This document shows positions 11,430-62,956 of a stretch of 64,000 nt of DNA, in pieces. This DNA is from Tubiluchus corallicola. Taxonomy: Eukaryota; Animalia; Priapulida. Position numbers and translations under genes: made by a program. Numbering within the stretch: position 1 is the first letter of the stretch; every line of letters starts with the position of its first letter. Below the pieces are notes generated by a model. That model was given only the letters and a program-made list of their open reading frames with translations, had not been told where the DNA came from and did not search any database. Location of the stretch: positions 248,001 to 312,000 of the forward strand of contig JAQGDQ010000042.1 in the NCBI GenBank assembly GCA_030141605.1, given 5' to 3'.

Positions 11430-12124
<695 letters not shown>

Positions 12125-42000: not shown

Positions 42001-42560
42001 CTACATCACTTAGCTGTTGCACTACTATTATATTTCACCTCGCAGGAAGAGGAGGACAGGAGACAGAGAGAAGAGGATGCCAAACACGAACAAGAGAAGC
42101 ATGAGCCATCTGTTAAGAAATCTCCGTCGGACTTCTCGTATGGGAGTTATGACTTGTTCGTTGGTCAAGATGGTCAGAAGTCAGGTGGTGATCCGGAGGA
42201 GAGGAAAGACAAGGCCAGTGTCAGCAATAAATCGCAAGACAATGAGTCTGGTGATAAGCTCAGCATCACTCAACAACCCAATGGTGCTGGTCGCAAGGTA
42301 AGATGCTGCATATCAGTGCAGTCGTAACAAAAATTTAATTGTGCCTTAACCAAACCATGATATTTTCAATCAGTTATCCAGTCAGATGTCGGGGAGTTTA
42401 AAAACTGTTACTCACACACACACACACACATATGTGTGTGTGTGAGTAACAGTTTTGTTATATATGTTTGATAAAATTTTTATATGTTTGAAAAATTCAT
42501 TAGTTGGATCATTTTGCTACAAAATAAATGCTGATGTGCACACATATACATGTGTGTGTG

Positions 42561-42592
<32 letters not shown>

Positions 42593-45500
42593 TGCGTGTG
42601 TGCGTGCGTGTACATCAGCATTTATTTTGTAGCAAAATGATTCAACTAATGAATTTCAAACATTAAAAATTTCTTTGTCCCTGGTTTCTAATTGTACTTG
42701 ATGGCTTCACAGGACTTTGATCGCTATTGTCCCTCTTAAATTCAACCTTTAAGACATTTGGAAATTACTGCCAGACTGCAAGTGTTATTTGTGTCCATAT
42801 TACAAAAAAATACGAAGTATTTTCTTTAGCACCAATTATCATTTCAGTTTAACTATGACAACAGTATAATGGCCTTTATGTGATTTACATTTATAAAGTG
42901 TGTGGCCAAATTCACCCGACTGAACTAGTCCAAGAATGATCTCTTACTACATTCACAACAGAGCTCTTGTTTCTGACATCACTGGTTGTGAATTTCTAAC
43001 TACAATTTGATTCCTGTATAATGAGCATTAAAGACCTTTCCATTCAGGGCATATAGAAAGACTCGCATTTGCGAAAACTGGCTCTTCTTAGACATACATT
43101 TAGGAATAGTATTGCCAGTTTGTGTGAAGTTCAACAAAAGAGTTGACATGTTTCTTGTAGAACAGATTGTGCAGACAGATGTGACTTGCATGCTTCAACT
43201 GTTTGTATTTACAACTATACTGTTTATTTATCATCAAAATAAATTAATAGTTAGTATAGTTATTTCAGTGTTATAACTAAAAATAATGGTGACATTGTTT
43301 TATGGCGATGAGTAGGTTTTAACATTTAAAACAATGACAGTTGATATTTATTAACTTTACTCAGTCTACTCTTCTATGTCTTTTGCACCTTACCTGCATG
43401 TGAACCAAACAAAATGTTGAGAGAAAATCAAAGTGTAATTGATAAATAAATCACCTATCTCACGCGTAAATTTGTTTGGTCGATCACGTATTTATTTAAT
43501 ACAAAAATTTTCATTTGATTACACAAAAAATGTTACTCCTTTTTCAGTTGATTGGCAAAAGTAATATTTAACTGTCACAACAATGGTACTAAGTTTCTAA
43601 CCTACACTTTTCTTATGTTAAATCTATGTGTAACTAATTCAGTTTCTACAAGTTTGACTAGGATTTTTCTATATAGTAATTGCAGCAACCATTTCTGTCT
43701 GTCATAGTGCTTCTGTGGCTTGTGAATACTTTGCCTGTGTAGGTAGCAAATTGTCTTTATCAACTATAAAACATCGAAAGATCTATGAAATTGCATATTT
43801 CATTTATCCTGAGTGGTTCTGTGTAATGTTAGTTAAGCATAGATAACAAAAGAAGTACGGCTAATGTAACAGGAACATGCATGTAGAATTACTGGAGGCT
43901 CGGCCACATTTCTGCTTCAGACTTCAGTTTTATATAATTTATTGTACTTTCAGTTTTTCTTCAGGTTGCTGTGCATCATCGGACCTCAGTTTTGTCACGC
44001 TGAACTGAACACAATCGGCATGTGTGCCATTTTGCATGTTGAGCATGGCATCGTTACTCACTTTTTTACGTATCTTGTTACTCGTTTGCAGTTTCTGTCA
44101 CTTGTATTGTGACCCATTTGTGTCAATTTTTTTGTTGCTTTGCATAACCGCTGGTTTTTATTTCAGGCAACGTTGTCCTTTTCTAACTTACAAATTTAAC
44201 ACATGACAGATGTACTTTTCAGAAAATTCGGTTTGTAAACAATCTGGCTTTAACCCTCTCTGATCGGTGTGTCGATCTCTTTCAGACAAGTGCTACGCCC
44301 GGATCACCCTACAATCGGCGTGGCAGCAAATCGAGTCAGTTTGCCTGGCGTAACGGAAGGCGTGCCACTGATCGTCAGCCTCTTGTTGTGACGTCATTCA
44401 TTGATGCTGTAGACTTTCCGTATGCCGATGCATCAGCTACCGTCACTCCAACTTCAGAAGTTTTCTATGATTCGTCTTTGCCAAAAATCCACACACCTCT
44501 TAGTCATACAGATTCTTTGACTGTCCCTCAAACACGAACATCACCGCCGCCTAATCACTCTTTGTTCAATGGCCGGTTAGTGTACGATCATCATGGTGAT
44601 AATAGGTTGGACTCCCTATCAGCATACTCTCGCAACATAGGGATGCATCCGCTCATACCCGACGTTGGTGCTGTGAAAGACAAAAAGAACAATGTAAGAA
44701 CCGCTCAAACCAAGGAAAATGAACTTATAGAGCTAAAGTACTTGTTTCCCACTGAAGTGAGTAACAATCCCAGGCAGTCAGATCAAATATTGTTAGGCTG
44801 GTTCTCGGAACATTGCACAACGGTTCTCTTTGCCGTTTGTGTAGCATACCATGTCTGTTTAAATGTCTAGTATCCAATCTGCCTCTATCTCTGGCCTCTC
44901 TTTCTCTCGCAGATATACCCATCTTTGCTGCACAGACTAGTTTCCACGAATGGCATATTCTAAATAGAGCCTTATATTCTTCTTACTTTACTCAACACTT
45001 TAATTATGATTTCAGGATTCTTTTCACGCTTTGCTGAAAAGCACTAACTGTGTCAATTCTATTATCATATAATATCAGCAGCACTTTAGCTGTTTACATT
45101 CATTACTATTGGGTACTGAAACTTAAGCATGCATGTGTTGAACACAAAATCATTCCGCTGTTAGACTAATCTGTTTTGTGTGAAAAACCTGCAAACATCT
45201 GCCACCATTTGTTGCATTTAAGAAGGTAAATTTCATTGCCTACAAGATTCAGCTCTGCACCCTTGTGCTACGTGTGTTGTTTATCACTCCTCCTGTATTA
45301 GAATTGTTTGTGTTTGCTGTTTATAGGCCGAGCTCTCCGAGAACCAGCTTACCATATTTGGTCTGGCTAATTTAATTCTCATTGCTTTTTTGTCGTCGTG
45401 GCTAGCCTAGACGTCTCTGCGCATTCTCTTTCTCTGCATGCATAAGTTCATTTTCTGTCAAAAGTTGTACTTCTTTACTAGTAGGTGGTGTCAGTGTAGC

Positions 45501-48500
45501 ATAGTCTTTTGGGGGTGTGGAGTGTATTTTTTTCCTCCTTACATAATGTGCCACAGCCACCTTTTCAAATGTGCAATATTGTTTCTCTTCTTGTTTGTTT
45601 CTTACCGATTAACTGCTGTAAATTTTCTTGGACAATATATGAAATATTATTGCATCTTTAATTTTAAACTGCTACAGCTCACTTCGTGTGTGTAACACGT
45701 GTTAAGGAAATTCTTGAACTGTGATTTGAGTAGAAACTAGTTTTTCTGCTAGAATAAGTACAACGATACTAAGTATCCAAGAGGAAAAGTACATAAGTGC
45801 TGATTGCTTAAAATATCATTCGTAAAAAGGTGACACTATACTAAAACAAATTTAGCCTAATTATTTAATTTGTAGCATCTCAGTTTTACAGAATGGGCTA
45901 GTTAAGTAATTATTTTAAGTAAATTCTGTTAGTCTAATTATTCTGTAGTTGGCATTGCTGTTAAATAATGTATACTCTTCTACCTGTATTATTATTGATA
46001 GTAAATATAGACTATAAAGCTGTTTGGTAAGGGCATTGTTGACTGGTAGAAGAATAATATATTATTTAAAATGTGAATGATTTTTTTGCCACTTGTAGGA
46101 CGGAAAATGGTGTTTTGATGAAAAGTATCGCTAACTAGTGCAATATTGTAGTTCTCAAAGATACTAAAAAACAGTTTTCCTAATTTACGTATATCTGGTT
46201 CAACAAAGTGTCCAAATGTCAAGTATTTTGTTTGATGCCAAGTTGTCAAGATGTTTGAATTGAAAATTATCTCAGCAAAGTTCATATTATATAGCAGTTT
46301 GGCTGAATTCCCAACATTTGTTGATATGGCCTCATTGTTATACTATAATATAAGCCTCGTAGGTATACTTTGCTACATGAGCCTGATAAGTGTGCTTCTC
46401 TATATAGGCATCATAAGTATTTATGTATTAAATATATAAACATGGATACTAATATACTAAAATTTATTAACTTAAGTGCAAAATTTGCAGATGTAGCATC
46501 AATGTGCCTGTAACAACTTAGTTAATTTTACAGTTTATTCAGCTAAATAGATTTTCCTTGTGTTTTGAACAGTTAAGGCTTTTATAGAATTTCATAGCCA
46601 CATTTATGCTTTTGTAATTCACTGTTTCTGATGGTTTTGTAAAACTTGTCGGACATCTCTTTAGATGCTTCTCGCAATCAAGGTGGCTTTGACACTATCA
46701 ACGTCTTTTTCCACTTGAAATTTATTTCAGTTTTTTTATTGCTGTGGTTTTACCTACGTGTGAGTGCAAAAATTATTATCAACAAATTTAATTTGTTTTT
46801 TAAATTCAAAAATTGTTAGCTCTATTGTTTTATTTGTACCCACCTCTAGGCGTAGTACTACTTTGAATTAAATTGCAATTACTGAAATAATTAAATATCT
46901 TATTAAGGTATCAGTATTTTTTCAAACTTTCGATACAACACAGAAAATAGTATTACATTTTATATCAAGTAATTGTAGAGCTGTTTTGCACATTATTCTA
47001 AGCAGATATTAATCTTGTACGTGCTCTTTAATTTGATTCAATTTAGGATTCATTCTTCAACACAAATTTTAATTTCTTCGATCGCGGCTGGCTTAAGCCA
47101 CGAACAGCCTCATGCGAACCTTCTCTCACGAGCACGCCTAGTCCGACACCTCCAGAAGCCAAAGGTAACTGCTATATTTATTTTTGTTATACCTTAGGAC
47201 CCATGTATGTCACAGAACAGCAGTAAGAACTCAGTAGGCAGTAGCAACTGTATTGTCTGTGGCAAAGATTAAATAGTAACACTGTTGTTATCGGATAGTT
47301 ATTTTCATTCAACGTTAATTACTGTTTATGATATACGTGCCTGCAAAAGTAGCAGACTGTGACTAAGATAGGTCCAAATAAGACATTTCTGCTGGTCTGG
47401 ATTTCAAATAAGAGATTGTCTTTGATAGCCAGCTAAAATTCTGGACCCTGCCGTAACTTTCAACATCAGTAGGCTGTGTGCTTACTGCTGGATCTTACCT
47501 TGCAATGTGCATAACTGTATTTAAATGTGTTTTTTGTGCATTAAAAGTTCAATTATGGTGTTCCCCAAGGGTGGGTATTAGACCTTATTCTTTTTCCACC
47601 ATTTTTTCAATGACCTATCACACTCTACTCACTATACTTGCAGTTTATGCTCACGCTACTATTATGCATAGTACTTAGCACTATAGCCCGTTAGACAAAG
47701 AGATCTTGAATTATTTTTAATCTGCAACCAAGATTGGCTTGCTACTGTAAAGAAAACAAACCTTGTGTTTTTTGCCACACAATATGCGTGTCTTTTTCTT
47801 ATATTCGTTTGCTTAACTTTGCCTTTAATCATTCTGATCTTAAATGTGAGCAGTATCTCACAGAAGTGGCCAAGAATTGCCAAGAAAAAAGTAAGATGTC
47901 AAATGATGCTTGAAAATATGATATTTTCAAGCATCATTTGGCATCTCTTGGCCGCTTCTGTGTAATATAATGTAACATACTCTGAAAGTCACCTGTTCAA
48001 CCTCTGCAGCTACATCTGGACTGGTGCCTCAGCCTCTTACCTTCATTCACTTGACACATTGGAATACAGTACTGTTAATCCAGTCTGGTTTGACTTGTTT
48101 ATCAATAGTCTGTTGCTACATAAAGTTTTATATTGCTGCTTTTGTAAAAGATACTGCCAGGATCTCTCCATTTGGGTTCCTCAACACCAACAGATGCTCA
48201 TAGTAATCATTTTGTTGCTGCTTATCAAGAATTTTTATTCTGTACATTCTTAGTTCCTGGAAAGCTGTTTATAAAACCAGCTTTTTTTCTTGCATTTCCT
48301 ATCCATGGAATGCTTTGCTTAAGTTGTTTCCTGCAACTTCACTTGCTTTCAGATAATTGATAAACGTCAACAAATATTGTCTGCCCATATCAAAGTAGTT
48401 GTTAGAATTCTAGTTTATTTAGTTTTTAACCTCAACCCTTACCTTTGATTACAACTAATGTCAGGGCCAGTTTTAAACTAATTAGACATATATGAGCATC

Positions 48501-51500
48501 CAGTACACAAAGTTTCTGTGAAGTCAGTGAAACTATTCCTCATATAGCTATGTTGCAATGTTTTTTGCTGATCGTTTGTTTATTTGTTTTGTAATTTCAG
48601 TTCATCATCGCCATTTGCTTTTCTAAAAAAGGTAATTGGCAAGCCCAATGTGCGATTAGCTAGATCATCTGTTTACTAATTTGTGGACGATATTCAAGCC
48701 CTTAACACGGAAAGAGCTCTCTCAACACGTTAAACTCATTTTTAATATATCATTGTGGCTAATTTTGTGCGAAGCATAAAACATCTGTCTTTAGCTTTTT
48801 TACGGTGAAGTGACCACTAATAATTTTCTAATTTGGCTTCCTAGTGCCAGCCATGCTAACTTTATTTGGAGCAAATTGTAAGGATAAAGTAAAAGTTGTT
48901 AACGACATTGTACAGTTAACCACTGTGAAAAATCAAAATGAGCATATGAGTTGTCACTACAACATTATGTATTATATTCAACTTAAGAAAAGGAAAAGCA
49001 CAAAATACATATTTTTGGAATTTTTAATTCAACATTTAAGCTTTTTACATGTGCTTTTGAGCTTGAAAATCACACGTGAAAATCTCACATGTGGAAAAGC
49101 TGTGAAATTTTGGATCTTCTTTTAAAAATGATTATGTGGACTATCATTGGTCATATTACAGAACCTCCACACCGTCGCGAGGAAACTCCTGATGCAGAAG
49201 AGGAGGAAGGCAAATGGAAACGGGTTGCTATGCATTACTGCTGGGATTACATTATGGGCTGGGAGTGCTCGCCCTGTTTTAGTAAAACTCAGTACATCGT
49301 TGGTTTATTTGTGCTAGATCCTTTCGTTGACTTATTCATTACTGTTTGTATTGTCGTCAACACATTGTTCATGGCGCTGGATTACCATGGGAAGTCTCCT
49401 GCTTTGGATCAAACTCTTTCAAATGGAAACAAAGTAAGTTGTATTTTAACATCTTTTTTAAAAACTTCTTTTTTATAGTGAAATGCTTTTTTTGAAAATC
49501 TGCTAGCAGCTGCCAAGAAAGTCAAAAAAATATTAAAATCACAAAAAACGAAATTGAGCAAAAACACTTCACAAAATACGTATTGTTATGGTGATACATG
49601 CTGTTACAGTTTTGCATGTGAACAAAAGCACATGGTTAGTAATGAGATAAAGGTTCAGGAAAAACCAATTTGGGAATTCACTGACCTATTGCAAATTCTA
49701 ATTATGCATTATACACCCATCATTTTTGGACTGTTTAACCATTATTGCCTCCACCCAAGCAAGCATTCTTTCAAAATAAGGCACATAATTTTGCAAAAAA
49801 ATGCAGCCCAGAACTAAGTCTCATTTCTATGATGGATCACTGACTTTCAATTACGATCGATGATCGACTAATGATTGATTATAATATTTTGTAGAGTTGG
49901 GTCAGTGTATAACATTATGTTAGGACATTAACTGCCTGTTGTTTCACTCCTGCGTCTCAATGGGGGAAGTCAGTATGAATGTAACCAAGCAGCCTGTGCT
50001 ATGCACAGATATCCCATATTGAACAGTGCTCTAAGCCGCGCTGCTTCATTGTTAACCATCTGCAATTTCTTTTACTAAGTAACTGTTCTATTTGTATATA
50101 AGCTATCACACTTATTTATTAAAGTATTTTATTAACTACATATGTTGCTATTGACACTGCAACTAAACGGCGGAAACGGGTGGCAAAGTGTGCAAAATCT
50201 TGCACTTATTGTGTTAAGCAATCATCAATTATGTTAATTTATGATCGAGCGCTTGCTGAATGTGACAGCCGACTGACTTTCGATAAAATTGATTAATCGA
50301 AACAGCATTAGTAGCAACATGTGTAACTGTTTCTCTGTTAATTTATTAAAACTGAAAACTATGCAAGTGGCAGTTTTATATTTAGGTAGATACTAAACTA
50401 AATTGAAAAGCAGAAGACAATGTTCAACTTCCGTAAAATTACAAAATGAGATCTGGCAAAACTATGTCGGCAAAATAGTTTGAAGAAACAGAAGCTAGAC
50501 CAGAAGACTGTGAAAGACCAAAAGCTATGTTTTTTGGGTTTTTGTTTTTTGTTTCTCTATTAAGAGGTCCTTTTATTTCTGTTTCAGTTTTTTACTGCCG
50601 TGTTTGCTGCTGAGTGCTTTCTAAAGATCATAGCTATGAGTCCAAAATATTATGTGCAGGATCCTTGGAACTGCTTCGATGGTGTCATTGTTGCTCTTAG
50701 TTTAGCTGAATTAGGATTAGCAAATGTCTCTGGTCTTTCTGTTTTGAGATCATTTCGATTGGTGAGTGTTTCTTCTGATAATTTTCTCTTAGGTGCCTCT
50801 TTTTCTAGTTAGAAGTTTGACGTTGTTAAGTGTAGAATACTATTACGTTCCTTCTAAAAGATTGCAAAACACAGGAAGTAGAAATAGAACTTTTTCAAAG
50901 ATTGTTCGCTGAATTATCAAGTAACCTAAGTCTGTTGTCTTCCTTATCTGAACTTTAGTGTAAATGACTTTCGAAATTGATATTTTTAGCACTAAATTGC
51001 TGATTTGTTTTTCAGCTACGGGTATTTAAGTTAGCAAAGTCATGGCCTACCCTCAACTTACTATTTAGCATTATGGGCAGCTCACTAGGTGCATTAGCCA
51101 ATCTCACTTTTATTCTTGGTATTGTTATCTTCATCTTTGCGGTTGTTGGAATGCAGTTATTTGGACAGTATTACACTTACGTAAGTTTGCTTTAAATAGA
51201 TTTTCAGTAAGCCTTCTAGCTCTGATCCTAAAGGATAAATTTTCATACCAGCAAAAAAGATTTTTATCATTCAAAACTCACAATTTTGCTTTTCTAAAAT
51301 AAAAAACAAATTTGTGGTTAAGGGGAGGGGCAGATGCATGTTGACCCTTTATTTTTCTTCATTTAAAGAAATTTTTGAAGCATTTTGCTAATTATTGCTA
51401 TTGTTAGAGATACATTCACAGTGTGCCACTCAAATTTGAACTCAAAATTGAAGAAGTTTAAAGTCGCTGAAATATCATAAGCTTGTAATTGCATTCTGCT

Positions 51501-54500
51501 GAATTAGTATAAACACAAAAATTTAAAGGGAAACCGGACCTAATCTTAAACTGTAGATCAAAACAATCTTCTCTTTAAAATATTGAAAGGGAACATACTA
51601 TTTTTTCAAGAATTACTTGAAAGAATTATTATCATACAAATGCAATTTCGCGTTCGTGTCACTAATTCTTCTCTGTTACATGCATTTTGCAATTCGTTAG
51701 TTAGATGGGCACTAGGACCTACATTTCAGAAATGTGTTGCACAAAAGCAGGTACTGCGCCTCTCAGTTTAGAAGTTCATGAGGTAGTGCACACGTTGAAG
51801 AGCTTATACGTGAGCACTGTGGCAAATTTGAAATTTGAATTTGAAACCTAAAATTTGCCGAGTTTTAATATATCACAATGAATCTCTTACAGTAGCAATG
51901 TAGTTCAATTTTCGCTTTCGCTAACACATGCAACACACTCATAGAATGTTTGTGCTGTTGAAAATTATATTCATTTGCGATGTCATCACTAGTTAGGATC
52001 GCCCGCCATTAATTACATTTTTAATTTTTCATTTAATTATCAAAAATGTTTTTGTACTATTGTTGGTGTTAAAATGTATACTTTTTACCGCACTTAAAAA
52101 TGGGGCAAGTAAAAATCATCCTGTTTTCCTTTAATGTTACTAGTACTAATGCATAGAAAATAATACTTGCTTTTCAGAATGTACAATTTAGGTAAACTTG
52201 TTACCGCAGATTCAAGTTGTTTTAAGGAAGTTAGTACTTTGCAAATTGGAGATTTAAATTTTATAGCTTATGTGTTAAGTTTATGTTTTAGGTGTGGTTG
52301 GATGCACGTCTTTTCTTTCAAAACTGTTGAATTTTTTTCAGCAAAATTTTGTAGAAATTCAAGGTCGTCCAGAAGAACCAAGGTGGCACTTCAAAGATTT
52401 CCTTCATTCGTTTATGATCGTTTTTCGAGTCCTGTGTGGTGAGTGGATAGAATCCATGTGGGACTGCATGTGTGTGGCTGGGTGGCCTTGCGTCCCATTC
52501 TTCCTCTTAGTCGTCGTTCTTGGCAATCTAGTAGTAAGTGAACATAACAATTGCATCTATTTTGAAGTTAATATAAGTATATTAATATTATATTAATATA
52601 ATATTATAATTACTCTTACTGTATCAGCAACTGTTCTATTATCACAGTTTAGCATAATATGAAATGCAAGCTTGAATTTTTAGTAATCAAACTTATCAAA
52701 CTGATATTTATACAAAGCATATTACAATCTTATTTTACCTACCTTAAAACTTACAAGTATTTTCTTCTTCATTGTGACTAACTTCAGGAGAGCACTATTC
52801 ATTTATACCATGTAATAAGCCTTTTCACAGTTCCTGCGATTGATGATGATCATGAAAATGTCAAAGGTTAATTGAACCAAACGCATATGTGTACACTTGA
52901 CAATGCCTTGCAGCCCATGCTATTGTAATAGTAACTTTTAACAACTAACTAGAACCTTGCCTAGTTCATTTTTCTTGTTCCCAAGCAAGGTCCTGCTAGT
53001 AAATCACTCTACACACAGACTAGTGCATAATTAAGTAAAGTCCACATAAAACAACAGGAAGTCACTGAACCGATGCAGCAGACAGCTTCTCTTTACCCAC
53101 ATGTCACGTGGTGGTTACCCACAAGACACGTCACTGGGGTTCACTTAACCTTTGACTGCACGTGCACATAGCGAAACTGTGAAAAGGCTTAATACAACTT
53201 AATCCCTCCTTTGTTGTTTTTTATTCTAGGTTCTCAACTTGTTTCTTGCCTTGCTGTTGAGCTCATTTTCTGGAGATACATTTACGCAAGAACCAGATTC
53301 AGAACCAAATAAACTTCAGGAAGCTATAGACAGGATAAAAAGGTAACGTAAGTCAAGCAGTGTTGCAAAGTTGAAATGTTTTAGCTAGAGTTCTAATATT
53401 AAACAGCAAATACATTACATTACGTTACAGTACATTATCATTAAACGTTTTTGGTGCCCCAGAAAACAGTTTATCAGTTGCATAATACGTAAATTTACCA
53501 GTAAGCTAAGCCTAAAGCACTACATTCGAAACAATAAAGTGTTTACTCTCACAACCTAAAAGAGATCTCATTAAAAACTAAAGTCATAAAAATTCAAAAT
53601 AAAGTCATAAGTACAGATATTTGTGGCTATAATTTAAAAGTGTTTGCAAGCAAATGGGTTTTTGGAGTCTTTTTAAAGGTAGTTAAAGGATACTGTGTCA
53701 ATAGACAGTAATGGTTTGAAAGTTTATAAAAAATGCTACCTTTTTGTACTAAATTTAAGAAAAAATTGTCGTTTAATGTTTGATGCTTATTGTCCGCTCC
53801 CGAAATCTTTTACTATCTACATCTACAATTGTATTTTAAAAATAATAGTAATTAAAATAAAAAAATAAATCAGTGTTTTACATATGGTCCATTTTGATTT
53901 TTTTCTTACTGTGTTCATTTTGCGTTATGCGCAGACATCTATGCTTAAAATGATGTTGACATTGGTTGTTGAGTTAGATCAGTGTGGAGTCTGATCTAAA
54001 CGGTTTTAAAAGTATTCCGATTTAGAGCAAGACTGTCAAAGTGCTGTACTAAGCACATTCACAATTCAATTCAATTTACCTTTTATTTCAGCATTCAAAT
54101 TGCCATATAATACACTAAAAAGATAAATTACTATAAATACACAAACACCCAAAATACTAACTCTACTAATTATCTGCAACAACAAAAAATATTGAAAGCT
54201 ACCCACACCAAATAAGAGGGATGTCCATAAATAAAAAAATTCTGAAGTATGTCGAACATAAGATTCCAAATACATTGTTCTTGCAGGATGTAGATTGCAC
54301 ATAAAATTTCAGTATCGTGTAAATCTTATCTACATGCATATCTGCCAAATGTATTTTACTACATAAAGAGTGATATCAAAAAGGAAAATAGCTGCAAGTT
54401 CTTATTTTTCAAGATTGACACATCCCTAGTTTAAATTATCAGTAATGTTGATATTAGCTTTCTTACCTCGTTATGTGAATAATTACAATCAAGTAAAAAT

Positions 54501-57500
54501 ATACAATGAAGAATGAATAGTAAGAATGGAGACAGAATTCAAACCACTGTCTTGTTTTGTTTTTAGGTTTATAGCATTTGGTAAAGCTTGGATGCTGAAA
54601 TCAATCAAAGAAAACACAAAACCTAGATCACATGACCACAAAGTAGCTGCTGTAAAAGCTGGTAAACATTAGATAGTTAAAAATTGCCAAACATTAAATC
54701 ATAGTAAAAGCAGTCTTGCCATTAGATGCCTGTCTTAAATCTAATTAATCTATCCCTCATGGTTCTGTGATAGAGAAATGATTTTGTTTATCAATTAAGC
54801 TGGCTGAATTTTTAGCACTCTGTATGACTACCATTTATAACTAGCATTTGAGAATTGGAAATGTGTACTTGTTCTTCATTTTCTTAGTCCCCACTATTTC
54901 ACATCGCTTTTGTGAATTGAAAAAATGACCTAGCATTCTTAATGTGTACTTTCAGTGTACAAATATTTTATTTAATTATTGTCAATGGACTAAATGGGAA
55001 AGAGAGCCAGGTTATGACTTTTTTGTGTCCCTTCAGGTTTAGCCACCCCCAAACTTGCCGGCACCCCGTCTTGAATAAACTTATTTCAAATTCTTTAAAT
55101 TAGCTAGAATAGCTATCTTTTGTTTGTCAGTAAGAAATACCACCATTTTACTATTTATCTAAAACCAAATTTCACTACAACGATAGTGAAAAAAGCAGAT
55201 TTTTTAACCAAATGTTATTAAAGCTTGAGGGGCCCTAGGCTGCAGCCTATTCTAGCCTTTAGGATGACCCAGCTCTGACTGGGAATGGAATCAAGACATG
55301 TTTCAAACATTTTATATCACTTTTGTAGAGGGTTGTCCTACTTTACTTGTTGTTGACTGTTTTTTGACAAATAATTGTGTATCTTTCAGTTGTAGCTGCA
55401 GGTAACCGAATAGACAGTATAGCTTGTGAAGTACTAGCTGACGGAGAAGTTAGATTGAAAACCCAAAATAATAAAGATGTAGAACGAGGCAGGGATGAAT
55501 TAGATAATCTACCTAACAACATAAAGAAAGGTGGGTTAAACGAGATATTCTGCACAATTTTTGTAAAAAAAATTAGTTCCCACGTTTAATTTTTTTTACG
55601 ATTGTTAAATGTTGAAACAAAAAACTTATCTGACAGAATGAAAACAGAAAACTGAATTTGTTTGGTTGGTGAGCCATAAAGATTGAATTAGGACCTGTTG
55701 TATCAAAAGTATTTTCGTCTTGTATCAAAAGTAAGTAAGTAAGTAAAGATATTTTATTTTTATAAGAAACTTTCCATTCTCCATGTGTACTTTACAATAA
55801 TTAGTATAAATTGAGAACCAAACAAGCAAATTTACATTTCAATTTAAAATACAGCTGCTGATAAATACAATTCATCAAATAAAAACTTTAACCAAGACAG
55901 AGCCTTGGGTATAAAATGTGAATAAAACAGAGAAAAATTTTTGTGTTAAATAAATTTAAAATGAAATTGAAACAAAAAAAAGCTGTAAAAGATAAAATAT
56001 TAATGGTGATCTGCATTTAAAACACTTCTATTGGTAAAAGTATTAGTTGCCCTTTTTTCTTTAATTTTAAAAAAGGTCTGTCATTCATATCCAGGCTATG
56101 TCCCAACTTTTTATAATTCTGTTGACTAACTGTTTCATAATTTCATAGTTCGGTATTTGTTTAGTTATTTCGGAGAAATTTGGTTTAAAATTTGCTATGA
56201 TTCCAATTGTGACATTTCACTTGTATTGCATAATTCACATATGCCGTTGTAATATTATAACACTGTGCATACAAAATACTCTGTACCTCAATTTTTGCAC
56301 CTGTTATTGAACTTAATATTCACTGATACCATTTTATTAACACTAGAAGGACCAAAAAAGTTTACTACTTAGAAGAAGAACGTGCATGCGTCAGTTGACC
56401 CAATCATAGTTTTTATTCCTATATAAAAATAAAACTGGCAGTTATCAGTCAGATTTCATTGAAATTCAATAATACATCAGAAAATTAATTGCATTCTTGT
56501 TTTATTAAAGCAGTTTATACAGTACAAATATAATGACTCATCTAATGGCTGAATTCGCAGTGCTTCGAGAACCTGCATTGAGGCAAGCCGTCTGATGGCC
56601 ATCCTGAGTGCAATCAGTCAAGAAAGTATAGACCACAACTTTTTGCTGATTTACACTCGCATTGACTTCTACGATCTCAGTACATTGTGACGATTTACAG
56701 TATGATGTACAATATGTATTGGCATCAATTGATGCAGATGGTCCTTCTAGGTAGCCAATTTTTAAAAAAAGGTTGAAGTAACATTTCAAACCTGAAGTTC
56801 TGTGCAATAGTAGTTAGCACTAAACTACGAAGCTAAACTAGGTAAACTAACAGAAAATAGGAACATATCCTCCAGAGATTCCAGACATACACACACAAAA
56901 AATTACATCAATTGACGCACCCAGTCCTAATGCTAAAGACGTAAATCTGAAGTTAGTCAATGATGTGTAACGTACAATGAAGTAGTCTTTTTAAGATCAC
57001 ACTTTAGCTTTTCTTGTTCCAGAAGGTTGGCCAGTCAATAACGTCAATGCAACATGTGTGCAATTAAATGAAAAGAAAGCTGTGATAACTACACAACCTG
57101 AGCTACCCAAAGACCTTGAAAAGGTATTTGTTTAGTTCTGCACAGTTACATACATTTCGCCATTTGCTAGTTAGACGGACACTATATATATATATATATA
57201 TATTGCTTGCATTTTGAAAATGCGTTGCACAAAAAACACTTGCTGTACCTCTTATTTCAGTGGGGTTCATTTGTGATGTATTGTACAAGTTTGAAATTTG
57301 TGATGTACTGTACAAGCTCAGGCGTGAGCACTGTGATAAATATGAAATTCGAATTTTTGTCTTAAAATTTGCCGAGTTTTAGTACAGCACACTGAATCTC
57401 TTACAGTACCACTGTACTTCGATCTTCGCTTTCGCAAACATGAGCAGCACGCTCGTGGAATGTTTGCGCTGTTGAAAATTATTTTCGGTTGTGATATCAT

Positions 57501-60500
57501 CAGTAATTGAGCTTGTCTGCCTTTAATTAAGATTTTAAAGTATTATTTAATTATAAGAAACACTTCTGCAGTATTATTGGTGTTAAAATGTATACTTTTT
57601 ACCATAGTAAAAACGGGGTAGGATATGAAAAATCATTCTGTGTTCCCTTAACAGATTGTAATTATTAATGCTAGCATCTCCTTTCTTTTTCTAGGGTGAT
57701 GGGCCTGTGGCTAACAGTCAAGACATTGCTATGGCTGATGACAATAAAAGCCTTAAGTCAAAATCAAACTCGTGCCAATCAAAAGAGGAACTGGAAGGTA
57801 GTCAAGAGCACCTCCATTCTCCTGCTCCCTCTCCTAGCATTGGTTCCATGGAGAAGACTGACAAAGAGTCGATCATCAGCGGAGAAGCTGGAGAGGGTGA
57901 GGAAGAGGAAGACGAGGAAGAAGAAGCTGAACCAGAAGATTGCTTTCCACCCAGCTGTGTTGCCAGGTAAACAGACATACTAAAAATGAAGTATGATATC
58001 AGAATGGTTATAAAAAGACAATTTCTTACAAGAACCTTTTCAAGTTATATTCTTATATATATTATATATTATGCGTTTTATATGTTATATGTTTTACTAA
58101 TACACCATTTAATCTGCACAGAACAGAGTCGGTTTGTGTCAAAGTGGTTCAGTAAGGGCAAGCTCTTGTTAGTGTGTGAATGTTTTAGGCTTCAATAATT
58201 TTCTTGGGGTATGGCAAAAACTGCCCAAAATTCTGCCACAGTTTGTATCTATGCACCGTAGTTGCCCAATGCAGAGGAATAACACAGAAGAGATAAAAGC
58301 CCATTTATTGTCTGATAATTTGATAGGCTTGGCAGTTGGCAGAGAGCGGTAGGTGCAATTATTTGTATTAGTATTTGGTTTGACACATTTGGTGTTTGCT
58401 TTTAACCACAACTAGCCATTTTTATCTGTAAAATTTATATCTGTGCTGTATATATGTTTTGTCATGGTTTCATATTTTATACTTTCTTGTAAATATTTTT
58501 AATATTTTTTAATAAAGATTATGTATTAAACTAAACTAATCTAAACTATGACTTGGCAGTAAATCAGGCTCACAAAATCCAGACTCCAGTTTAGAAAACA
58601 AGCACCCTGCTACTTTGGCTATTCCTGCAATGCATCCAGTTCATGTAGTATTGCATAAACTGCAAAAAGGTACCAACGTGCCATCTACACTACAAAAGAT
58701 CTGTGTCTTTACTAAGACTGTTTGTTTTCATTTCACGAAAGTTGATTCGTTTTTATCTGGGAGTTTTTTATGTTTGTTGTGCATTTTTGTTTGTTAGCCA
58801 GGCATATACGGTTGAGAATGTTGATTAAGATACCTACATGTTTAGATTGAGATGTTACTGAGGTCCTGTGTGTTGTGGTTTTCTCGTGATTGTATAGTGT
58901 TGACTGAGTTAACACAAGTAAAACTCTTAATGGCTGAAGTCAACAGAAACAACTTGAATTACAGGTCTGAGTCTCACCGTTTTGTTTATTCCAAACATCT
59001 GGGTTGCGATACTCCAAAACTAAGGTACACAAATGGTTATGGTTCCTGTATGCCAGATATGTCAAACCACAGAAGCAGTTTAGAAGTCTCTGCTCGCCTC
59101 CTTTCTTGAGCATGTTGAGTGTTAGTATTTCGCTCTCTGCCTCACCTCTTGTTTTTTGAAAAACAGCTACAATGCATCACTAACTCCAGGAAGCAGAGAA
59201 AAACTCGGTGAATGTTTCCTGCAATTGTGATGCTTAGCACCAGCCCTCGTTAGGAACAAGGAATTATTCTCACAGGAAAAAGCTTGAATACAAAATTGAA
59301 ATATACCAGGTTGTAGAAAAAAAATCAATAACCCTATAATATGGAGAACGACTTCATCATATATGTGAATTAATGTATTGGTTTCGTTTTACCATTTTTT
59401 TAGATGATTCTGAAAACTCTATTGATACCAACCAGCAATAAGAAAATAGACTTTAAAGTTTTGTGTAATATGAATATCAGCAAACTTCTTTTACAAATGT
59501 TGTTACTTGAAGATCATAGTGTTGAGTAGAGAAACTGCTTCACTGTGTTTGTGTAAAACTACTTTCATGGAATTTTTGCAGGTCAGCTTGTTGTCAGGTA
59601 GATATGGAAAAGCCGGGATGGGCTAGATGGTGGAAACTTAGGAAGCGAATGAATTGGTTGTGTGAACACAAATACTTCGAAACTTTCATCATAGTTTGCA
59701 TTTTGTTTAGCAGCTCGGCACTGGTACACACATTTTTTCTTTTACCCTTTGCAGTGTTTTGTCTGGTCCCTTCTCTGTTCACTTTAATTAAATATATTGG
59801 AAGGAGTCTACAATTCCCTACACAATTTAAATATCCTAACCCTAATCCTAATACATTTTATTGTATATTTCAGAACATTATTTAACAATTTCTGATAAAA
59901 ATAAGGGATAAGGACTAATCTGCAAATTTTTTACTTTTCTGAAGTATTTTTGTATCTTTATTTACTATACATTACTTTTTCAACAACTCATAAGACTTTG
60001 CAGAGTTTACTGTAATTGAAGTGAGAATAGGATTAAAATAACTGATTTATATCTAAATTAAAATTTCAGGCAATAGAAGACATCTACCTTCGTGAACGAC
60101 CAGGACTAGCACTATTTCTTTACATTGCCGACAAATTCTTCACAATTGTTTTTGCTTTGGAAATGTTTATCAAATGGTTTGCTTTCGGTTTTTCCAAATA
60201 TTTCACTGACGCTTGGTGTTGGTTAGACTTCTGTATAGTAACGGTGAGTTCATTGTACAGTAGGCACTTTTTATTAGACTCACGGTTAATAGATTTATTC
60301 ACTTAATTGACTCAAGAACACCTGGACGGGCCTATTCAAATGTACATAAAAACCGCCGGTGATTGGCTTAGATTACTCCTCATAATTCACTCAATATTTT
60401 CCTTCACATACTTAAAATAAGATACTTGTGTGTACCCAAAGAACTTTTGCTGCTTTAATGTCATCTTTGCATCGATTTTGTGCACTATAATATACGTAGA

Positions 60501-62956
60501 AACAGTCACATGAAATACAGCTTTGTTTGTAAGTAGGTACAGTATTTTTATCATACGAGCTAATATGCTAGGGTAGCGGTTTTGCTTTGAATCTGTCACC
60601 CATTTATCGGCTGCAATTAACCTCATTGTTTCTGGAAGCTAAACACTTAATCACTTGCCCAGCAGTTTGCTTTTGAAGCTCCTGCTGCTTTCCACAGGGT
60701 CATTACCAACTACAGCTCAAGCCCTAGGTGTTTTGTGTGAATATGTGCAGCCTACAGTAACAGATTTTCAATGTTTTTATCCCTATGAGAATTTCGTAAA
60801 CTAACAGCTTCATGAATAAACGAAGCAACCGACTGTGCATGTATTGTAATTTTTAATGGTAATGATCAGGTTTTTGCAATTTTTTTCTTCTTCGTTAATT
60901 CACTTATATAAATTACACTTCTTAAATAATAGCACATAGGTAATTTTGACATTAATTCATTTCTAAAATTCATTTAAAGCCTTTGCAATGCATCCTAGAC
61001 TGATGAGTGATGACTCATACTTGTTTAGTAGTAATATACCAAATCCTTCGGCTAATTGACTCAGTCGGCTAGTTGGGTCAAAACACTTCCATCCCAAAGT
61101 GAGTCTATTGAGCTGCGCCTACTGTTTATTATTTAAAATCGAAATGTTTTGTTGAAGTAAGTTTATTTTTTAATTATTACATGAGTTCATCAAACAGTAA
61201 TTTTTCCCATAAGTTTTATGTTTATAGCTGGTTGAGCTCAAACTTAATTTATGCAATAATGAATACTCAAAAGTTGAAGCATATGTATACGTAGAGACTC
61301 AAATGTGCTTAGTGGAGCGCACTGCCTCGGTGTTATAAGTTGAACAAATCCACAGTTATTTGCATGTAGTTCAGTGAGTAAAATGGTTTTGCAACAGAAA
61401 AAGCTTAAAAGTAGGAATGAATGAACTTCATTTGCACTTTTTACAAAGTAATAATGTACAAATAAATAGTAAAAAGTTAAAAGTGCTGGAGCAATCAGTG
61501 CTAACAAGGCACAAAAAAACTGATGCACAAAATCACAATTACTTTCAACTTTACCACAACAACATAGGAGCCCCTACAGGTTAGTATAATAAAAGCGTGG
61601 ATCATCTAAAACTTTATCAAATTAACCGATAAGCAGAAAAAAACACTTGGGTGATAATTTATAAATCAGCCATACAGATAAACCATATAAATTGTTAGTG
61701 ACTATTGTAAAATAAATATTTACAAATTGTATGAGCATTGTATGCTCTTCTGCATTGCAGCACAAGTTTACCTTCAGAAAGGAATCCTTGAAAACAGTTG
61801 GTCATTCATAGCCTTAATATTGTGGCACACAATTGATGAATGTTGCTCTCTATGCATCCATAACAATATAATGCCTTTTCTAAATCCTTTACTGTATAAA
61901 AAAATAATGAAAAACATTGCCATCATTAATTAAGTTTTAGTGCAGTTGGATGAAGTGTTTCAGTGCCTGTTATTGTACAAATTATCTCAGTTTTTTAACT
62001 TTTAAAGGAGAAGACCATCATTCGTTAAGGTCTATGGGTTAAGTATTTAACATTTTCCTATGTTTTTAACCATTTCCTTCCACAGAATATAAAACTCATT
62101 CAATTCTATTGTTTCACCATGTTTTTTTTGTCAAAATTGAAAAAATGAAACGTTGCAGTCTCTCATTAGGTAGAAAACTCGTGCTTACCACAGTCATTCA
62201 AAAGGAATCCACACTGCAGGAAAATATCATTCTTCTTGTTAACTTATAGTATTTAATATTTATTCTTCTCTTTAATTCATTCACAGATTTTTCATTGATT
62301 GATTGTGCTGTTCATCGCTTTTTAGGTAAAGAATATTTTGTGAAATTCAAAGTGTTTTAAAACCGTAATGATACATTGAAATGCCTTATTCATGCATTTA
62401 GTGTGTTCTGTGATTGAGCTCTTTGGAATGTCATTAAAATGGAATCTACTAAGATAATACCACACTCTAGATAGAATAGGAAACTGCACAAAAGGTTTTC
62501 TATTCTCGGGAAAAGGTTTATTGTTTTAATAATTTTGTCATGTTCACTGCTTTCTCTGCTTTTTTATTGAAGACATATTCTTCTTCCTGAAGGCAATTAA
62601 CTCATGGTTCTCTGACTGAGCAAACCATTCACATTTTCTAGATATCGTTCGTTAATATCATCGCTGAAATACTCGGGGCAGGCAACATCTCGGCGTTCCG
62701 GTCGATGAGGACATTGCGTGCCCTGCGTCCGCTTCGAGCGGTGTCTCGGTGGGATGGAATGAAGGTACGGCATGGTGGACAAATTTTTCATTAAACATCT
62801 TTTATTTTAGTTGTTTTTTGAATTTTTTTACAGATATCTTTTATTAATCTCCTCGCTGAAGGTTTAGGTCTTGGTAACATTGCTGCCTTTCGCTCAATGA
62901 GGACGCTACGCGCCCTTCGTCCTTTACGTGCTGTTTCACGTTGGGAAGGAATGAAG
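26787..62956 (+). CDS. para: Voltage-gated sodium channel alpha subunit (Nav1/para-like), multi-exon gene, 3'-partial (N-terminus through DIII S4)
   Basis: Exons join in phase (4125 nt = 1375 codons using the short exon-1 donor, exon 47047-47164 and one DIII S3-S4 exon). Hallmark motifs: [100 protein letters not shown]. The DI-DII linker has para-like [10 protein letters not shown] and DRQPLVV...PYAD. The DIII K of DEKA lies outside the window. Confidence 0.96.
27074..27110 (+). promoter_or_regulatory. Rbfox-type splicing element cluster: TGCATG x3 plus GCATG
   Basis: TGCATG at 27081, 27088 and 27105 and GCATG at 27074, at the distal exon-1 donor. Confidence 0.55.
30178..30306 (+). CDS. para: Nav exon 2 ([16 protein letters not shown]...[15 protein letters not shown])
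   Basis: tag/ acceptor, TAT/GTAAGT donor, 129 nt phase 0-0; conserved PDxxLxxGxxLP and PxEEIDxYY motifs. Confidence 0.92.
30522..30640 (+). CDS. para: Nav exon 3 ([40 protein letters not shown])
   Basis: cag/ acceptor after a T-tract; ends at U12 donor /ATATCCTTT; conserved TFVVxxK and FRFSA motifs. Confidence 0.95.
30641..33333 (+). other. U12-type (minor spliceosome) AT-AC intron
   Basis: 5' ATATCCTTT; branch-point-like TTCTTTAAC at 33314-33322; 3' end TTTAC. Joining restores the CC|A Pro codon and the DI S1 frame. Confidence 0.93.
31040..31160 (-). mobile_element. Possible tRNA-derived SINE head fragment
   Basis: B-box-like GTTCGAATCCC on the minus strand (~31118-31128); a similar GGTTCGAGTCCC sits on the plus strand at ~16206. 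No complete cloverleaf seen. Confidence 0.3.
33334..33414 (+). CDS. para: Nav exon 4, DI S1 ([27 protein letters not shown])
   Basis: Follows the AC acceptor; donor GA/GTAAGT; 81 nt phase 2-2; TILxNCxFM motif. Confidence 0.94.
33548..34179 (+). mobile_element. hAT-like MITE, copy 1
   Basis: TIR TAGGGATGTTA...TAACATCCCTA; flanking direct repeat ccagaag (7-8 nt TSD); subterminal tatcg repeats. Confidence 0.8.
34507..34818 (+). mobile_element. Short hAT-like MITE (cagggccagatta... termini); inverted relative copy at ~55002-55277
   Basis: Shared ggctaatataggctgcaggctagggc and aaggtcataatccagcc blocks in reverse complement. Confidence 0.5.
35101..35229 (+). CDS. para: Nav exon 5, DI S2-S3 ([20 protein letters not shown]...[16 protein letters not shown])
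   Basis: ctag/ acceptor, GC/GTAAGT donor, 129 nt. Confidence 0.96.
35447..35541 (+). CDS. para: Nav exon 6, DI S3-S4 ([32 protein letters not shown])
   Basis: cag/ acceptor, G/GTAAGT donor, 95 nt; S4 with R/K at every third residue. Confidence 0.96.
36764..37126 (+). mobile_element. MITE with agccttttcacagtt TIRs, copy 1
   Basis: TIR-bounded; internal tacacttgacattgccttgcag and tgtaatagtaac shared with 52816-53191. Confidence 0.7.
38007..38222 (+). CDS. para: Nav exon 7, DI S4-S5 linker and S5 ([22 protein letters not shown]...LRQKCV...)
   Basis: tag/ acceptor, A/GTAAGT donor, 216 nt phase 1-1. Confidence 0.96.
38234..38930 (-). mobile_element. hAT-like MITE, copy 2, inverted relative to copy 1
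   Basis: TAGGGACGTTA...TAACATCTCTA; TSD agtatagc/agtgtaac (6/8); internal sequence is the reverse complement of 33548-34179. Confidence 0.78.
39406..39469 (+). CDS. para: Nav exon 8, DI extracellular loop ([21 protein letters not shown])
   Basis: tgcag/ acceptor, GG/GTAAGA donor, 64 nt; CGNxSxG motif. Confidence 0.92.
39969..40113 (+). CDS. para: Nav exon 9, DI pore loop ([10 protein letters not shown]...[10 protein letters not shown]...[15 protein letters not shown])
   Basis: ctag/ acceptor, CTG/GTACGT donor; selectivity-filter Asp codon at 40087-40089. Confidence 0.97.
40796..40960 (+). CDS. para: Nav exon 10, DI S6 ([40 protein letters not shown]...)
   Basis: ttcag/ acceptor, CAG/GTAATT donor, 165 nt phase 0-0. 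Confidence 0.96.
41215..41223 (+). CDS. para: Candidate 9-nt microexon (EVA) in the DI-DII linker
   Basis: Long pyrimidine tract with TGC, then ctag/GAAGTTGCG/GTAAGG; symmetric phase 0, matching the flanking exons. Confidence 0.6.
42046..42297 (+). CDS. para: Nav exon 11, DI-DII linker ([10 protein letters not shown]...[19 protein letters not shown]...GRK)
   Basis: cgcag/ acceptor, AAG/GTAAGA donor, 252 nt; resembles the arthropod para KSPxxxSxxSYELFVG motif. Confidence 0.92.
42401..42456. repeat. Near-perfect inverted repeat (hairpin 1) centred on a CA/TG microsatellite
   Basis: aaaactgttactcacacaca... / ...tgtgtgtgagtaacagtttt. Confidence 0.92.
42484..42663. repeat. Inverted repeat (hairpin 2), ~57-nt arms around a (TG)n(TGCG)n loop
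   Basis: Arms differ only by a 2-nt indel and two G:T positions. Confidence 0.92.
44286..44693 (+). CDS. para: Nav exon 12, DI-DII linker ([25 protein letters not shown]...DRQPLVV...FPYAD...KDKKNN)
   Basis: ttcag/ acceptor, AAT/GTAAGA donor, 408 nt phase 0-0; PKA-type RRGS site. Confidence 0.9.
47047..47164 (+). CDS. para: Probable DI-DII linker exon ([39 protein letters not shown]), phase 0 to 1
   Basis: tttag/ acceptor, AAG/GTAACT donor, 118 nt. A 0-to-1 phase exon is required between 44693 and 49162. Confidence 0.62.
49162..49433 (+). CDS. para: Nav exon, DII S1 (...WECSPCF...[24 protein letters not shown]...GNK)
   Basis: acag/ acceptor phase 1, AAA/GTAAGT donor. Confidence 0.95.
50588..50761 (+). 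CDS. para: Nav exon, DII S2-S4 start ([19 protein letters not shown]...WNCFD...[10 protein letters not shown])
   Basis: ttcag/ acceptor, TTG/GTGAGT donor, 174 nt. Confidence 0.96.
51016..51180 (+). CDS. para: Nav exon, DII S4-S5 ([55 protein letters not shown])
   Basis: ttcag/ acceptor, TAC/GTAAGT donor, 165 nt. Confidence 0.96.
51527..52130 (+). mobile_element. Kolobok-like MITE, intact ends
   Basis: TTAA|AGGGAAACCGGA ... TCCTGTTTTCCT|TTAA: TTAA TSD with purine-purine termini. Confidence 0.72.
52342..52533 (+). CDS. para: Nav exon, DII pore and S6 start ([30 protein letters not shown]...GNLV)
   Basis: ttcag/ acceptor, GTA/GTAAGT donor; selectivity-filter Glu codon at 52441-52443. Confidence 0.97.
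52816..53191 (+). mobile_element. MITE with taagccttttcacagtt TIRs, copy 2
   Basis: 17-nt perfect TIR (taagccttttcacagtt / aactgtgaaaaggctta). Confidence 0.75.
53230..53342 (+). CDS. para: Nav exon, DII S6 end ([16 protein letters not shown]...[14 protein letters not shown])
   Basis: ctag/ acceptor, AG/GTAACG donor, 113 nt. Confidence 0.96.
54567..54661 (+). CDS. para: Nav exon, DII-DIII linker ([31 protein letters not shown])
   Basis: ttttag/ acceptor phase 2, G/GTAAAC donor phase 1; continues the RIxRF motif. Confidence 0.85.
55390..55530 (+). CDS. para: Nav exon, DII-DIII linker ([24 protein letters not shown]...NNIKK), symmetric phase 1, possibly optional
   Basis: ttcag/ acceptor, AAG/GTGGGT donor, 141 nt open frame. 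Confidence 0.75.
56341..56932. mobile_element. Possible piggyBac-like MITE
   Basis: ttaa|cactagaaggacc left end; subterminal gcgtcagttgac / tcaattgacgc inverted pair; degenerate right end. Confidence 0.35.
57023..57123 (+). CDS. para: Nav exon, DII-DIII linker ([34 protein letters not shown]), phase 1 to 0
   Basis: ttccag/ acceptor (NAGNAG cag aag), AAG/GTATTT donor; supplies the phase shift needed before 57695. Confidence 0.8.
57200..57647 (+). mobile_element. Kolobok-like MITE, 5'-truncated copy
   Basis: Strong similarity to 51700-52130; ends ttctgtgttccc|ttaa. Confidence 0.65.
57695..57966 (+). CDS. para: Nav exon, DII-DIII linker end (GDGPVANS...[18 protein letters not shown])
   Basis: ctag/ acceptor, AG/GTAAAC donor; conserved PEDCFPxxC motif. 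Confidence 0.92.
59582..59723 (+). CDS. para: Nav exon, DIII S1 (SACCQVD...WWKLRK...[20 protein letters not shown])
   Basis: tgcag/ acceptor phase 2, CTG/GTACAC donor. Confidence 0.94.
60070..60243 (+). CDS. para: Nav exon, DIII S2-S3 (AIEDIYL...[16 protein letters not shown]...[15 protein letters not shown])
   Basis: ttcag/ acceptor, ACG/GTGAGT donor, 174 nt. Confidence 0.96.
62287..62325 (+). other. Candidate stop-containing (poison) exon, or relic third copy of the DIII S3-S4 exon
   Basis: Pyrimidine tract + tcacag/ATT TTT CAT TGA...TTTAG/GTAAAG. A shifted frame reads ISLID, like the start of the two functional copies. Confidence 0.4.
62642..62764 (+). CDS. para: Mutually exclusive DIII S3-S4 exon A ([41 protein letters not shown])
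   Basis: ctag/ acceptor, AAG/GTACGG donor, 123 nt phase 0-0. Confidence 0.95.
62834..62956 (+). CDS. para: Mutually exclusive DIII S3-S4 exon B ([41 protein letters not shown])
   Basis: tacag/ acceptor, AAG/GTAGGG donor, 123 nt; 34/41 aa identical to exon A and 69 nt downstream of it. Confidence 0.95.

What the first reader, a model, noticed from the sequence alone, without database searches (positions are those of the whole stretch)
62642..62956. Duplicated, mutually exclusive DIII S3-S4 voltage-sensor exons, with an N-glycosylation sequon in only one
Seen: two intact 123-nt phase-0 exons 69 nt apart, differing at 7 of 41 residues (V/I, I/L, I/L, I/G, A/L, S/A, D/E) with heavy synonymous divergence. 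Exon A has N-I-S in the extracellular S3-S4 loop; exon B has N-I-A. Exon A is strikingly GC/CpG-rich for this gene. Known: the same segment is alternatively encoded in insect para (exons k/l, affecting persistent current) and in vertebrate SCN8A (18A/18N). Inference: this non-model channel has a two-functional-isoform switch that may toggle glycosylation, gating or toxin binding. Whether the pair is orthologous to k/l or an independent duplication is open.
Basis: partly seen in the sequence, partly recalled or inferred. Interest (0 to 1): 0.78.

Follow-up and report, generated by a model that had tools for sequence, protein, structure and literature searches.

The report
Twin voltage-sensor exons in worm Nav1
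The nerve sodium-channel gene of a non-arthropod invertebrate (likely a worm) carries two old, intact, side-by-side copies of one voltage-sensor exon, which are likely spliced one at a time into two channel forms predicted to differ slightly in gating, a switch already known at this exon in insects, while the proposed sugar on/off switch is likely not real.

Summary
Observation confirmed. Two intact 123-nt phase-0 exons for Nav1 domain-III S3b-S4 lie 69 nt apart. They differ at 7 of 41 residues, synonymous sites are saturated (pS 0.78, pN 0.12), and DNA contigs span the pair. The gene is a protostome Nav1 outside the sampled arthropods, molluscs and Capitella/leech group; earlier notes on this genome say priapulid, which I did not show. 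Mutual exclusion is inferred (very short spacer with predicted branch points under 50 nt from the donor; tandem use would double S4). No RNA contig covers either exon. The glycan switch is weak: in a homolog model the Asn sits in a 7-residue loop, 3 residues before S4, against a reported 12-residue minimum. The Ser is the residue just before the S4 helix, and 23 of 102 homologous segments carry this sequon. Neither copy has the derived residues of arthropod exon l; the best tree makes A and B sisters, but k/l orthology is not rejected (p-AU 0.10). This exon is also duplicated in insects, crustaceans, a pseudoscorpion, fishes, a gecko and an unnamed annelid-like animal (also Ser upstream, none downstream). 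The scan found a similar pair before in a shark or ray. Verdict: new member of a known kind.

The parts
60070..60243 (+). Upstream constitutive exon, DIII S1 end to S3a (58 codons, phase 0), donor GTGAGT
   Evidence: Pfam Ion_trans E 9e-13; Nav1 hits. An RNA-like contig of run X6 joins the previous exon to it across a GT..AG intron but stops at 60206.
60244..62641 (+). 2398-nt intron; CTGAC branch-like motif 26 nt before exon A; T-poor acceptor (T fraction 0.35, tied lowest of 16 acceptors)
62642..62764 (+). Exon A: DIII S3b, S3-S4 loop, S4 and start of the S4-S5 linker; CpG-rich; donor GTACGG
62684..62692 (+). N-I-S sequon of exon A; Ser17 is the residue just before the S4 helix in a homolog model
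62765..62833 (+). 69-nt spacer intron; yUnAy branch candidates at +26 (62790) and +40 (62804); GCATG at 62770-62774; 2 in-frame stops
62834..62956 (+). Exon B: same segment; T-rich acceptor (0.76); donor GTAGGG; N-I-A at 62876-62884
26787..62956 (+). Host gene: protostome Nav1 alpha subunit, from the likely first coding exon to DIII S4; it continues beyond the window

Best explanation
The Nav1 gene holds two old, intact tandem copies of the domain-III S3b-S4 exon, which are likely spliced one at a time into two full-length channels predicted to differ in gating through S3 packing, loop and S4 helix-cap residues rather than through a glycan. Shown: the duplication, intact splice sites, an identical S4 charge set, and strong purifying selection on both copies. 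Inferred: (1) joining A to B is blocked because the branch point of the 69-nt spacer lies under 50 nt from A's donor, and a channel with two S3b-S4 units would not fold; (2) B, with the stronger acceptor, is the default and A the regulated form, possibly through the GCATG motif next to A's donor (a weak lead); (3) six changes in S3b and the loop, including I10G and S17A, plus D38E at the S4-S5 linker tune activation or persistent current as k/l do, but more mildly; (4) the duplication arose in this lineage, independently of arthropod k/l (about 65%).
For: Both copies are conserved as protein: pS 0.776 against pN 0.123, and no residue differs in positions 18-37. The spacer is the shortest gap between modelled exons (next shortest 215 nt). 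Its branch candidates are at +26 and +40, inside the <50 nt steric criterion of PMC5740500 and PMC7969005 (passages). The A and B donors match 4 of 6 consensus bases, while 11 of 13 correctly registered other donors match 5-6. The same exon is mutually exclusive with functional effects in Drosophila and cockroach (PMC4309913, PMC5014079, PMC3805903 passages). In the AlphaFold model of P0140, a homolog with the same exon length and N-I-S, S3 ends at exon position 10, the loop is 7 residues, the Asn is 3 residues before S4 and the Ser directly precedes the helix (pLDDT 72 for residues 81-90). The stated minimum for glycosylation is 12 residues (PMC3226467 passages). Neither copy has the l-type Q17, K20, T21 or Q38. 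The best exon trees join A and B.
Against: No transcript covers A or B: the one RNA-like run (X6, 13 million letters of contigs) has no piece on either exon at 85% or 80% likeness, so neither exclusion nor use of each exon is shown. The 50-nt rule comes from vertebrates; some invertebrates splice introns of about 60-70 nt (recalled), and this genome's intron sizes could not be surveyed. Both exons are multiples of 3, so frame shift cannot enforce exclusion. A+B support is nil to low (26/0; 58% of bootstrap trees), and k/l orthology is not rejected (p-AU 0.099; 0.07-0.12 singly). The structure model is of a homolog and has moderate confidence. The differences are conservative and may have little effect. 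The downstream exon lies outside the window, so further copies cannot be excluded.
Confidence: 0.6

Rival explanations
1. Glycan switch: exon A adds an N-glycan on the DIII voltage-sensor loop that exon B lacks, changing surface charge, trafficking or toxin access.
For: The sequon is in A only. An unnamed annelid-like reading frame, P0053, runs through two copies 22 codons apart with N-I-S first and N-I-G second. N15 and S/T17 co-occur a little more than expected (23 against 18.3; Fisher p 0.06, not corrected for kinship). S4 may be exposed to the lumen during biogenesis, which could relax the distance rule (recalled).
Against: 7-residue loop with the Asn 3 residues from S4 against a 12-residue minimum. 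Among 55 segments with N15, position 17 is G in 24, S in 20, T in 3, P in 3, Q in 2, A in 2, V in 1. S/T17 also occurs in 11 of 47 segments without N15, which fits a helix-cap role. 0 of 8 arthropod and fish tandem pairs have the sequon in either copy. Searches found no paper showing glycosylation at this loop position.
Confidence: 0.12
2. A and B are orthologues of arthropod k and l, inherited from an ecdysozoan ancestor; l gained its special residues later in arthropods, or the copies were partly homogenised.
For: Not rejected by AU tests. The pseudoscorpion pair shares P17/E38 upstream and Q17/Q38 downstream with insect k/l, so k/l looks at least as old as arthropods. A and B share N5 with k and l. 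Grouping the gene with arthropods is not rejected (p-AU 0.55), and earlier notes call this genome likely priapulid. Synonymous saturation allows great age.
Against: Log-likelihood is 12 units worse than the A+B tree. A and B differ at 7 positions against 11-15 for k/l, and at 1 against 5 in positions 18-41 of the four pancrustacean pairs. Neither has P17 or Q17. They share F3 and K41. The taxon is not established.
Confidence: 0.25
3. Only one exon is used to any extent and the other is a rarely spliced spare or decaying copy, or both are included together to give a non-conducting form, like G3 or 18N.
For: No RNA evidence for either exon. A has a weak acceptor and unusual codon use. Non-functional products at this site are known in cockroach, booklouse and mammals.
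Against: With synonymous sites saturated, a dead copy would have lost S4 or its frame; instead pN is 0.038 in codons 18-41 and both copies keep their splice sites.
Confidence: 0.08

Closest known systems
Drosophila para exons K/L (exon 25) and cockroach G1/G2/G3 (PMC4309913, PMC5014079: passages read)
   Same: Same 41-codon DIII S3-S4 exon in a Nav1, tandem, two coding copies.
   Different: K and L differ at 16 of 41 residues per the paper (11-15 in the four gene models I compared), including S4 and its end. A and B differ at 7, none in S4. Both resemble k or the single ancestral exon. No poison copy was seen. No function or regulator is known here.
Liposcelis bostrychophila exons 27A/B/C/D (PMC3805903: passages read)
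   Same: DIII S3-S4 cassette exons, one per transcript; 27B and 27D are a near-identical coding pair, showing repeat duplication.
   Different: Insect; four forms including a truncated one; shown by cDNA clones.
Vertebrate SCN8A/SCN1A 18A/18N (as described in PMC4309913) and two-copy gene models of Acipenser, Cyprinus, Crenichthys, Sphaerodactylus
   Same: Alternative exons at the same position.
   Different: 18N has a stop codon. The fish copies differ at 16-24 of 41 residues. Vertebrate sequences are a separate clade.
Unnamed annelid-like pair, P0053 (with P0080, P0138, P0155 for copy 1 and P0102, P0135, P0139 for copy 2)
   Same: Two coding copies about 66 nt apart, N-I-S upstream and no sequon downstream.
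   Different: Only 3 of 41 residues differ. Copy-to-copy orthology with A/B is rejected (p-AU 0.022), barring gene conversion. Inferred from a read-through protein; I did not have its DNA.

Membership tests
Nav1 voltage-gated sodium channel | Falls in the Nav1 clade rather than Nav2 | tested here: met
   SH-aLRT 99 for Nav1 and 99 for the protostome Nav1 group; 55-62% identity to protostome Nav1 against 39-48% to the five outgroup-side channels (Dreissena, P210, P186, P176, P187).
Nav1 voltage-gated sodium channel | DEKA selectivity filter | tested here: inconclusive
   D (DI) and E (DII) are present; the DIII and DIV pore loops lie beyond the window.
Tandem duplicated mutually exclusive exons | Adjacent homologous exons of equal length and phase with intact splice sites | tested here: met
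Tandem duplicated mutually exclusive exons | Both copies under protein-level constraint | tested here: met
   pS 0.776, pN 0.123
Tandem duplicated mutually exclusive exons | Each exon seen alone in transcripts, with joining reads absent | tested here: inconclusive
   No RNA contig on either exon; no RNA holder listed.
Arthropod k/l exon pair | Upstream copy with P17, downstream copy with Q17/K20/T21/Q38 | tested here: not met
   A has S17, D38; B has A17, E38; both have R20, S21.
Arthropod k/l exon pair | A groups with k and B with l | tested here: inconclusive
   Not in the best tree; not rejected, p-AU 0.099.
Arthropod k/l exon pair | Isoforms differ in persistent current and are controlled by Pasilla/Nova | not testable with these tools
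   6 YCAY in the 200 nt before A, a level reached by 12 of 189 background windows; needs electrophysiology.
SCN8A 18A/18N poison-exon switch | One copy carries an in-frame stop | tested here: not met
   Both copies are open.
Occupied N-glycosylation site | N-X-S/T sequon on the extracellular side | tested here: met
   Exon A positions 15-17.
Occupied N-glycosylation site | About 12 residues from the membrane on each side | tested here: not met
   5 residues after S3 and 3 before S4 in the homolog model; rule from PMC3226467.

The most novel reading that the evidence does not exclude
The DIII S3b-S4 exon is a duplication hotspot, doubled independently in arthropods, vertebrates, an annelid-like lineage and this likely priapulid. 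In the last two the copies converged on one layout: a spacer under 70 nt and a Ser upstream swapped for Ala or Gly downstream at the S4 helix cap. That single position (through the helix cap, or less likely a glycan) would be a convergently selected tuning knob of the domain-III voltage sensor.
Probability: 0.2. Interest if true: 0.62.

Novelty: new member of a known kind. Interest (0 to 1): 0.34.

Why it matters
It extends the best-studied splice switch of invertebrate sodium channels beyond arthropods. It also gives a nearly minimal natural pair (identical S4, 7 changes) for asking which S3b, loop or cap residues tune domain-III gating. If the animal is a priapulid, the pair bears on whether k/l is ancestral to Ecdysozoa or arose repeatedly; PMC5740500 says this kind of question needs more taxa. 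The kind of event is known and common in ion channels, and the glycan angle is probably a red herring.

Tried and rejected
RNA evidence: no RNA holder was listed. Run X6 (RNA by guess, same species label, about 93-98% alike in exons) shows spliced contigs for upstream exons but nothing on A or B; this says nothing for or against expression.

Genome: none is held, so the downstream exon, further copies, paralogues and intron sizes were not seen.

RNA structure: exon A folds with z -2.08 alone (7 of 200 shuffles as good) but z -0.97 with flanks (33 of 200); B with flanks gives z -1.63. None of the 25 longest of 38 inverted repeats in 60000-64000 looked like a docking/selector pair. Rejected as a mechanism. 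YCAY enrichment is not significant (12 of 189 windows). The GCATG in the spacer is expected 0.07 times by chance and was noticed after the fact, so it is only a lead.

Metagenome scan: of 209 matches the best 80 were returned. 0 of 80 loci (79 annelid-like, 1 k-type) hold two full copies; 68 have at least 300 nt and 32 at least 1000 nt on both sides.

Taxon: three trees and a count of 44 diagnostic columns (12 arthropod-like, 24 lophotrochozoan-like, 8 other; of 6 derived lophotrochozoan states only 1 shared, of 17 derived arthropod states 5) did not name the phylum. No priapulid Nav1 appeared by name in three homolog searches. The window's own joined isoforms were not folded; a homolog was used.

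Literature: the hNav1.8 glycan list (PMC11805909) and the Nav1.5 and toxin reviews (PMC7773603, PMC3399347) gave no test of an S3-S4 sequon. Ten searches showed no report of a DIII S3-S4 exon pair in a non-arthropod invertebrate Nav1. Oyster splicing is in the linkers (PMC5295241 passages). Copley 2004, Tan 2002 and Plummer 1997 were not seen, and no supplements were opened.
Full report
Observation. A (62642-62764) and B (62834-62956) are 123 nt, phase 0, open, and bounded by AG and GT. They differ at 7 of 41 residues and 36 of 123 bases, and 21 of 34 same-residue codons differ. pS is 0.776 and pN 0.123; over codons 18-41 pN is 0.038. The 69-nt spacer has two in-frame stops. DNA contigs span the pair (X1, X2; possibly the source sample), and a run from another study covers exon A and the spacer with one difference. 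Exon A's CpG count (14) is not reached by any of 350 sub-windows of 14 other exons. Its GC and GC3 are high against a codon null but matched by the first coding exon. I have no explanation for this; the folding signal vanishes when flanks are added.

Host gene. tblastn and splice-site reading give a Nav gene from about 26787 to beyond the window end. The exons match DIII S3-S4 of solved Nav channels. In trees of 687-789 columns it is a protostome Nav1 (SH-aLRT 97-99) outside the sampled arthropods, molluscs and the Capitella/leech group, about 60-64% identical to its nearest sampled relatives. Placing it with arthropods is not rejected (p-AU 0.55). Earlier notes on this genome call it likely priapulid; my trees allow that and do not show it.

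Are the exons alternatives? This was not observed. The only RNA-like run has spliced contigs for upstream exons and none on A or B. The inference rests on four things. Both copies are conserved as protein. Two S3b-S4 units in a row would break the topology (established channel architecture). The spacer is the shortest gap between modelled exons (next 215 nt), with branch candidates at +26 and +40, inside the under-50-nt steric limit used for vertebrates (PMC5740500, PMC7969005, passages). Both donors are weaker than 11 of 13 others (one further donor was mis-registered and left out). Frame shift cannot enforce exclusion, since both exons are multiples of three. B's acceptor is T-rich and A's T-poor, which suggests B is the default. 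A GCATG motif (Rbfox-type, recalled) lies at +6 to +10 of the spacer, but 0.07 such motifs are expected by chance. I put exclusive use of both at about 0.8.

What would change? Positions 18-37, including all S4 arginines, are identical. I folded P0140, a homolog with the same exon length and N-I-S (it matches Nav structures). Positions 4, 6, 7 and 10 fall in the S3 helix, 13 in a 7-residue loop, 17 directly before the S4 helix, and 38 at the start of the S4-S5 linker. The Asn is 5 residues after S3 and 3 before S4, whereas core glycosylation needs about 12 (PMC3226467, passages). The sequon is also ordinary: 23 of 102 distinct homologous segments have it, including octopus and amphioxus, and this gene has sequons in its DI and DII loops. 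Position 17 is mostly G or S whether or not Asn precedes it, as expected of a helix cap (interpretation). Against my reading: the Asn-Ser association has p 0.06, the model is moderate (pLDDT 72 there), S4 may insert late (recalled), and a second animal shows the same polarity. I give the glycan switch about 0.12 and favour a modest gating difference, by analogy with K/L (persistent current) and G1/G2 (amplitude, gating, deltamethrin sensitivity) (PMC4309913, PMC5014079, PMC3805903, passages).

Origin. Gene models that wrongly chain both copies show this exon duplicated in insects and a shrimp (7 named models), and in a pseudoscorpion, sturgeon, carp, a killifish and a gecko. The arthropod pairs share P17/E38 upstream and Q17/Q38 downstream; A and B have neither P17 nor any l-type residue. 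The best 41-column trees put A and B together without support. Forcing A with k and B with l costs 12 log units, p-AU 0.099, so it is disfavoured but not rejected. An unnamed annelid-like frame (P0053) reads through two copies 22 codons apart, N-I-S then N-I-G, 3 residues different; six other unnamed proteins carry one or the other copy. Copy-to-copy orthology with A/B is rejected (p-AU 0.022). 0 of 80 metagenome loci had two full copies, and oyster splicing lies elsewhere (PMC5295241). An independent duplication is my best reading (about 0.65).

Comparison and novelty. It works like para k/l. It is a candidate member of the tandem mutually exclusive exon class, with the transcript criterion untested. 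It is not filed as k/l (diagnostic residues absent) or as an 18N-type poison switch (no stop). Tandem exon duplication is known to be enriched and convergent in voltage-gated channels (PMC9741552, passages and section 16). Ten literature searches showed no report of this pair in a non-arthropod invertebrate; the library lacks most subscription papers and I opened no supplements. Other papers seen as passages only: PMC6259924, PMC3399347, PMC12772994, PMC11805909, PMC7773603. The scan noted a like pair in a cartilaginous fish and a four-way neighbour exon in another worm.

Verdict. A real, old, conserved exon pair; a new member of a known kind; the glycosylation claim is likely wrong. Interest 0.34.

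Noticed in passing
P0053 (with P0080, P0138, P0155, P0102, P0135, P0139): An unnamed annelid-like Nav1 has two tandem DIII S3-S4 exons about 66 nt apart, N-I-S then N-I-G; likely a separate duplication, and not found in my literature searches.
   Followed up: partly
window 30640-33333: AT-AC (U12-type) intron in domain I with an ATATCCTTT donor and a TTCTTTAAC branch; the minor intron known from Nav genes (recalled).
   Followed up: no
window 35478-35486 and 50723-50731: The DI (N-L-T) and DII (N-V-S) S3-S4 loops also carry sequons.
   Followed up: partly
window 62123-62352 and 63108-63269: Contigs of the more diverged run X5 match these intron stretches flanking the pair (35 and 8 differences); possible conserved splicing elements, or repeats.
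   Followed up: no
P0146 (Cordylochernes), P0147, P0148, P0154, P0158: The pseudoscorpion pair has k-like and l-like marks, suggesting k/l predates the chelicerate split. Sturgeon, carp, killifish and gecko models carry two coding copies of the same exon.
   Followed up: partly
L054 1269-1406: 62-nt tandem repeat of the 3' half of the S4 exon and its donor at a contig end; perhaps an assembly artefact.
   Followed up: no
window 51400-52300, 52800-53270, 57000-57940, 60250-61130: Very high contig depth marks high-copy repeats inside the Nav introns.
   Followed up: no
window 11305-12180: Long trinucleotide microsatellite giving a spurious low-complexity open frame.
   Followed up: no
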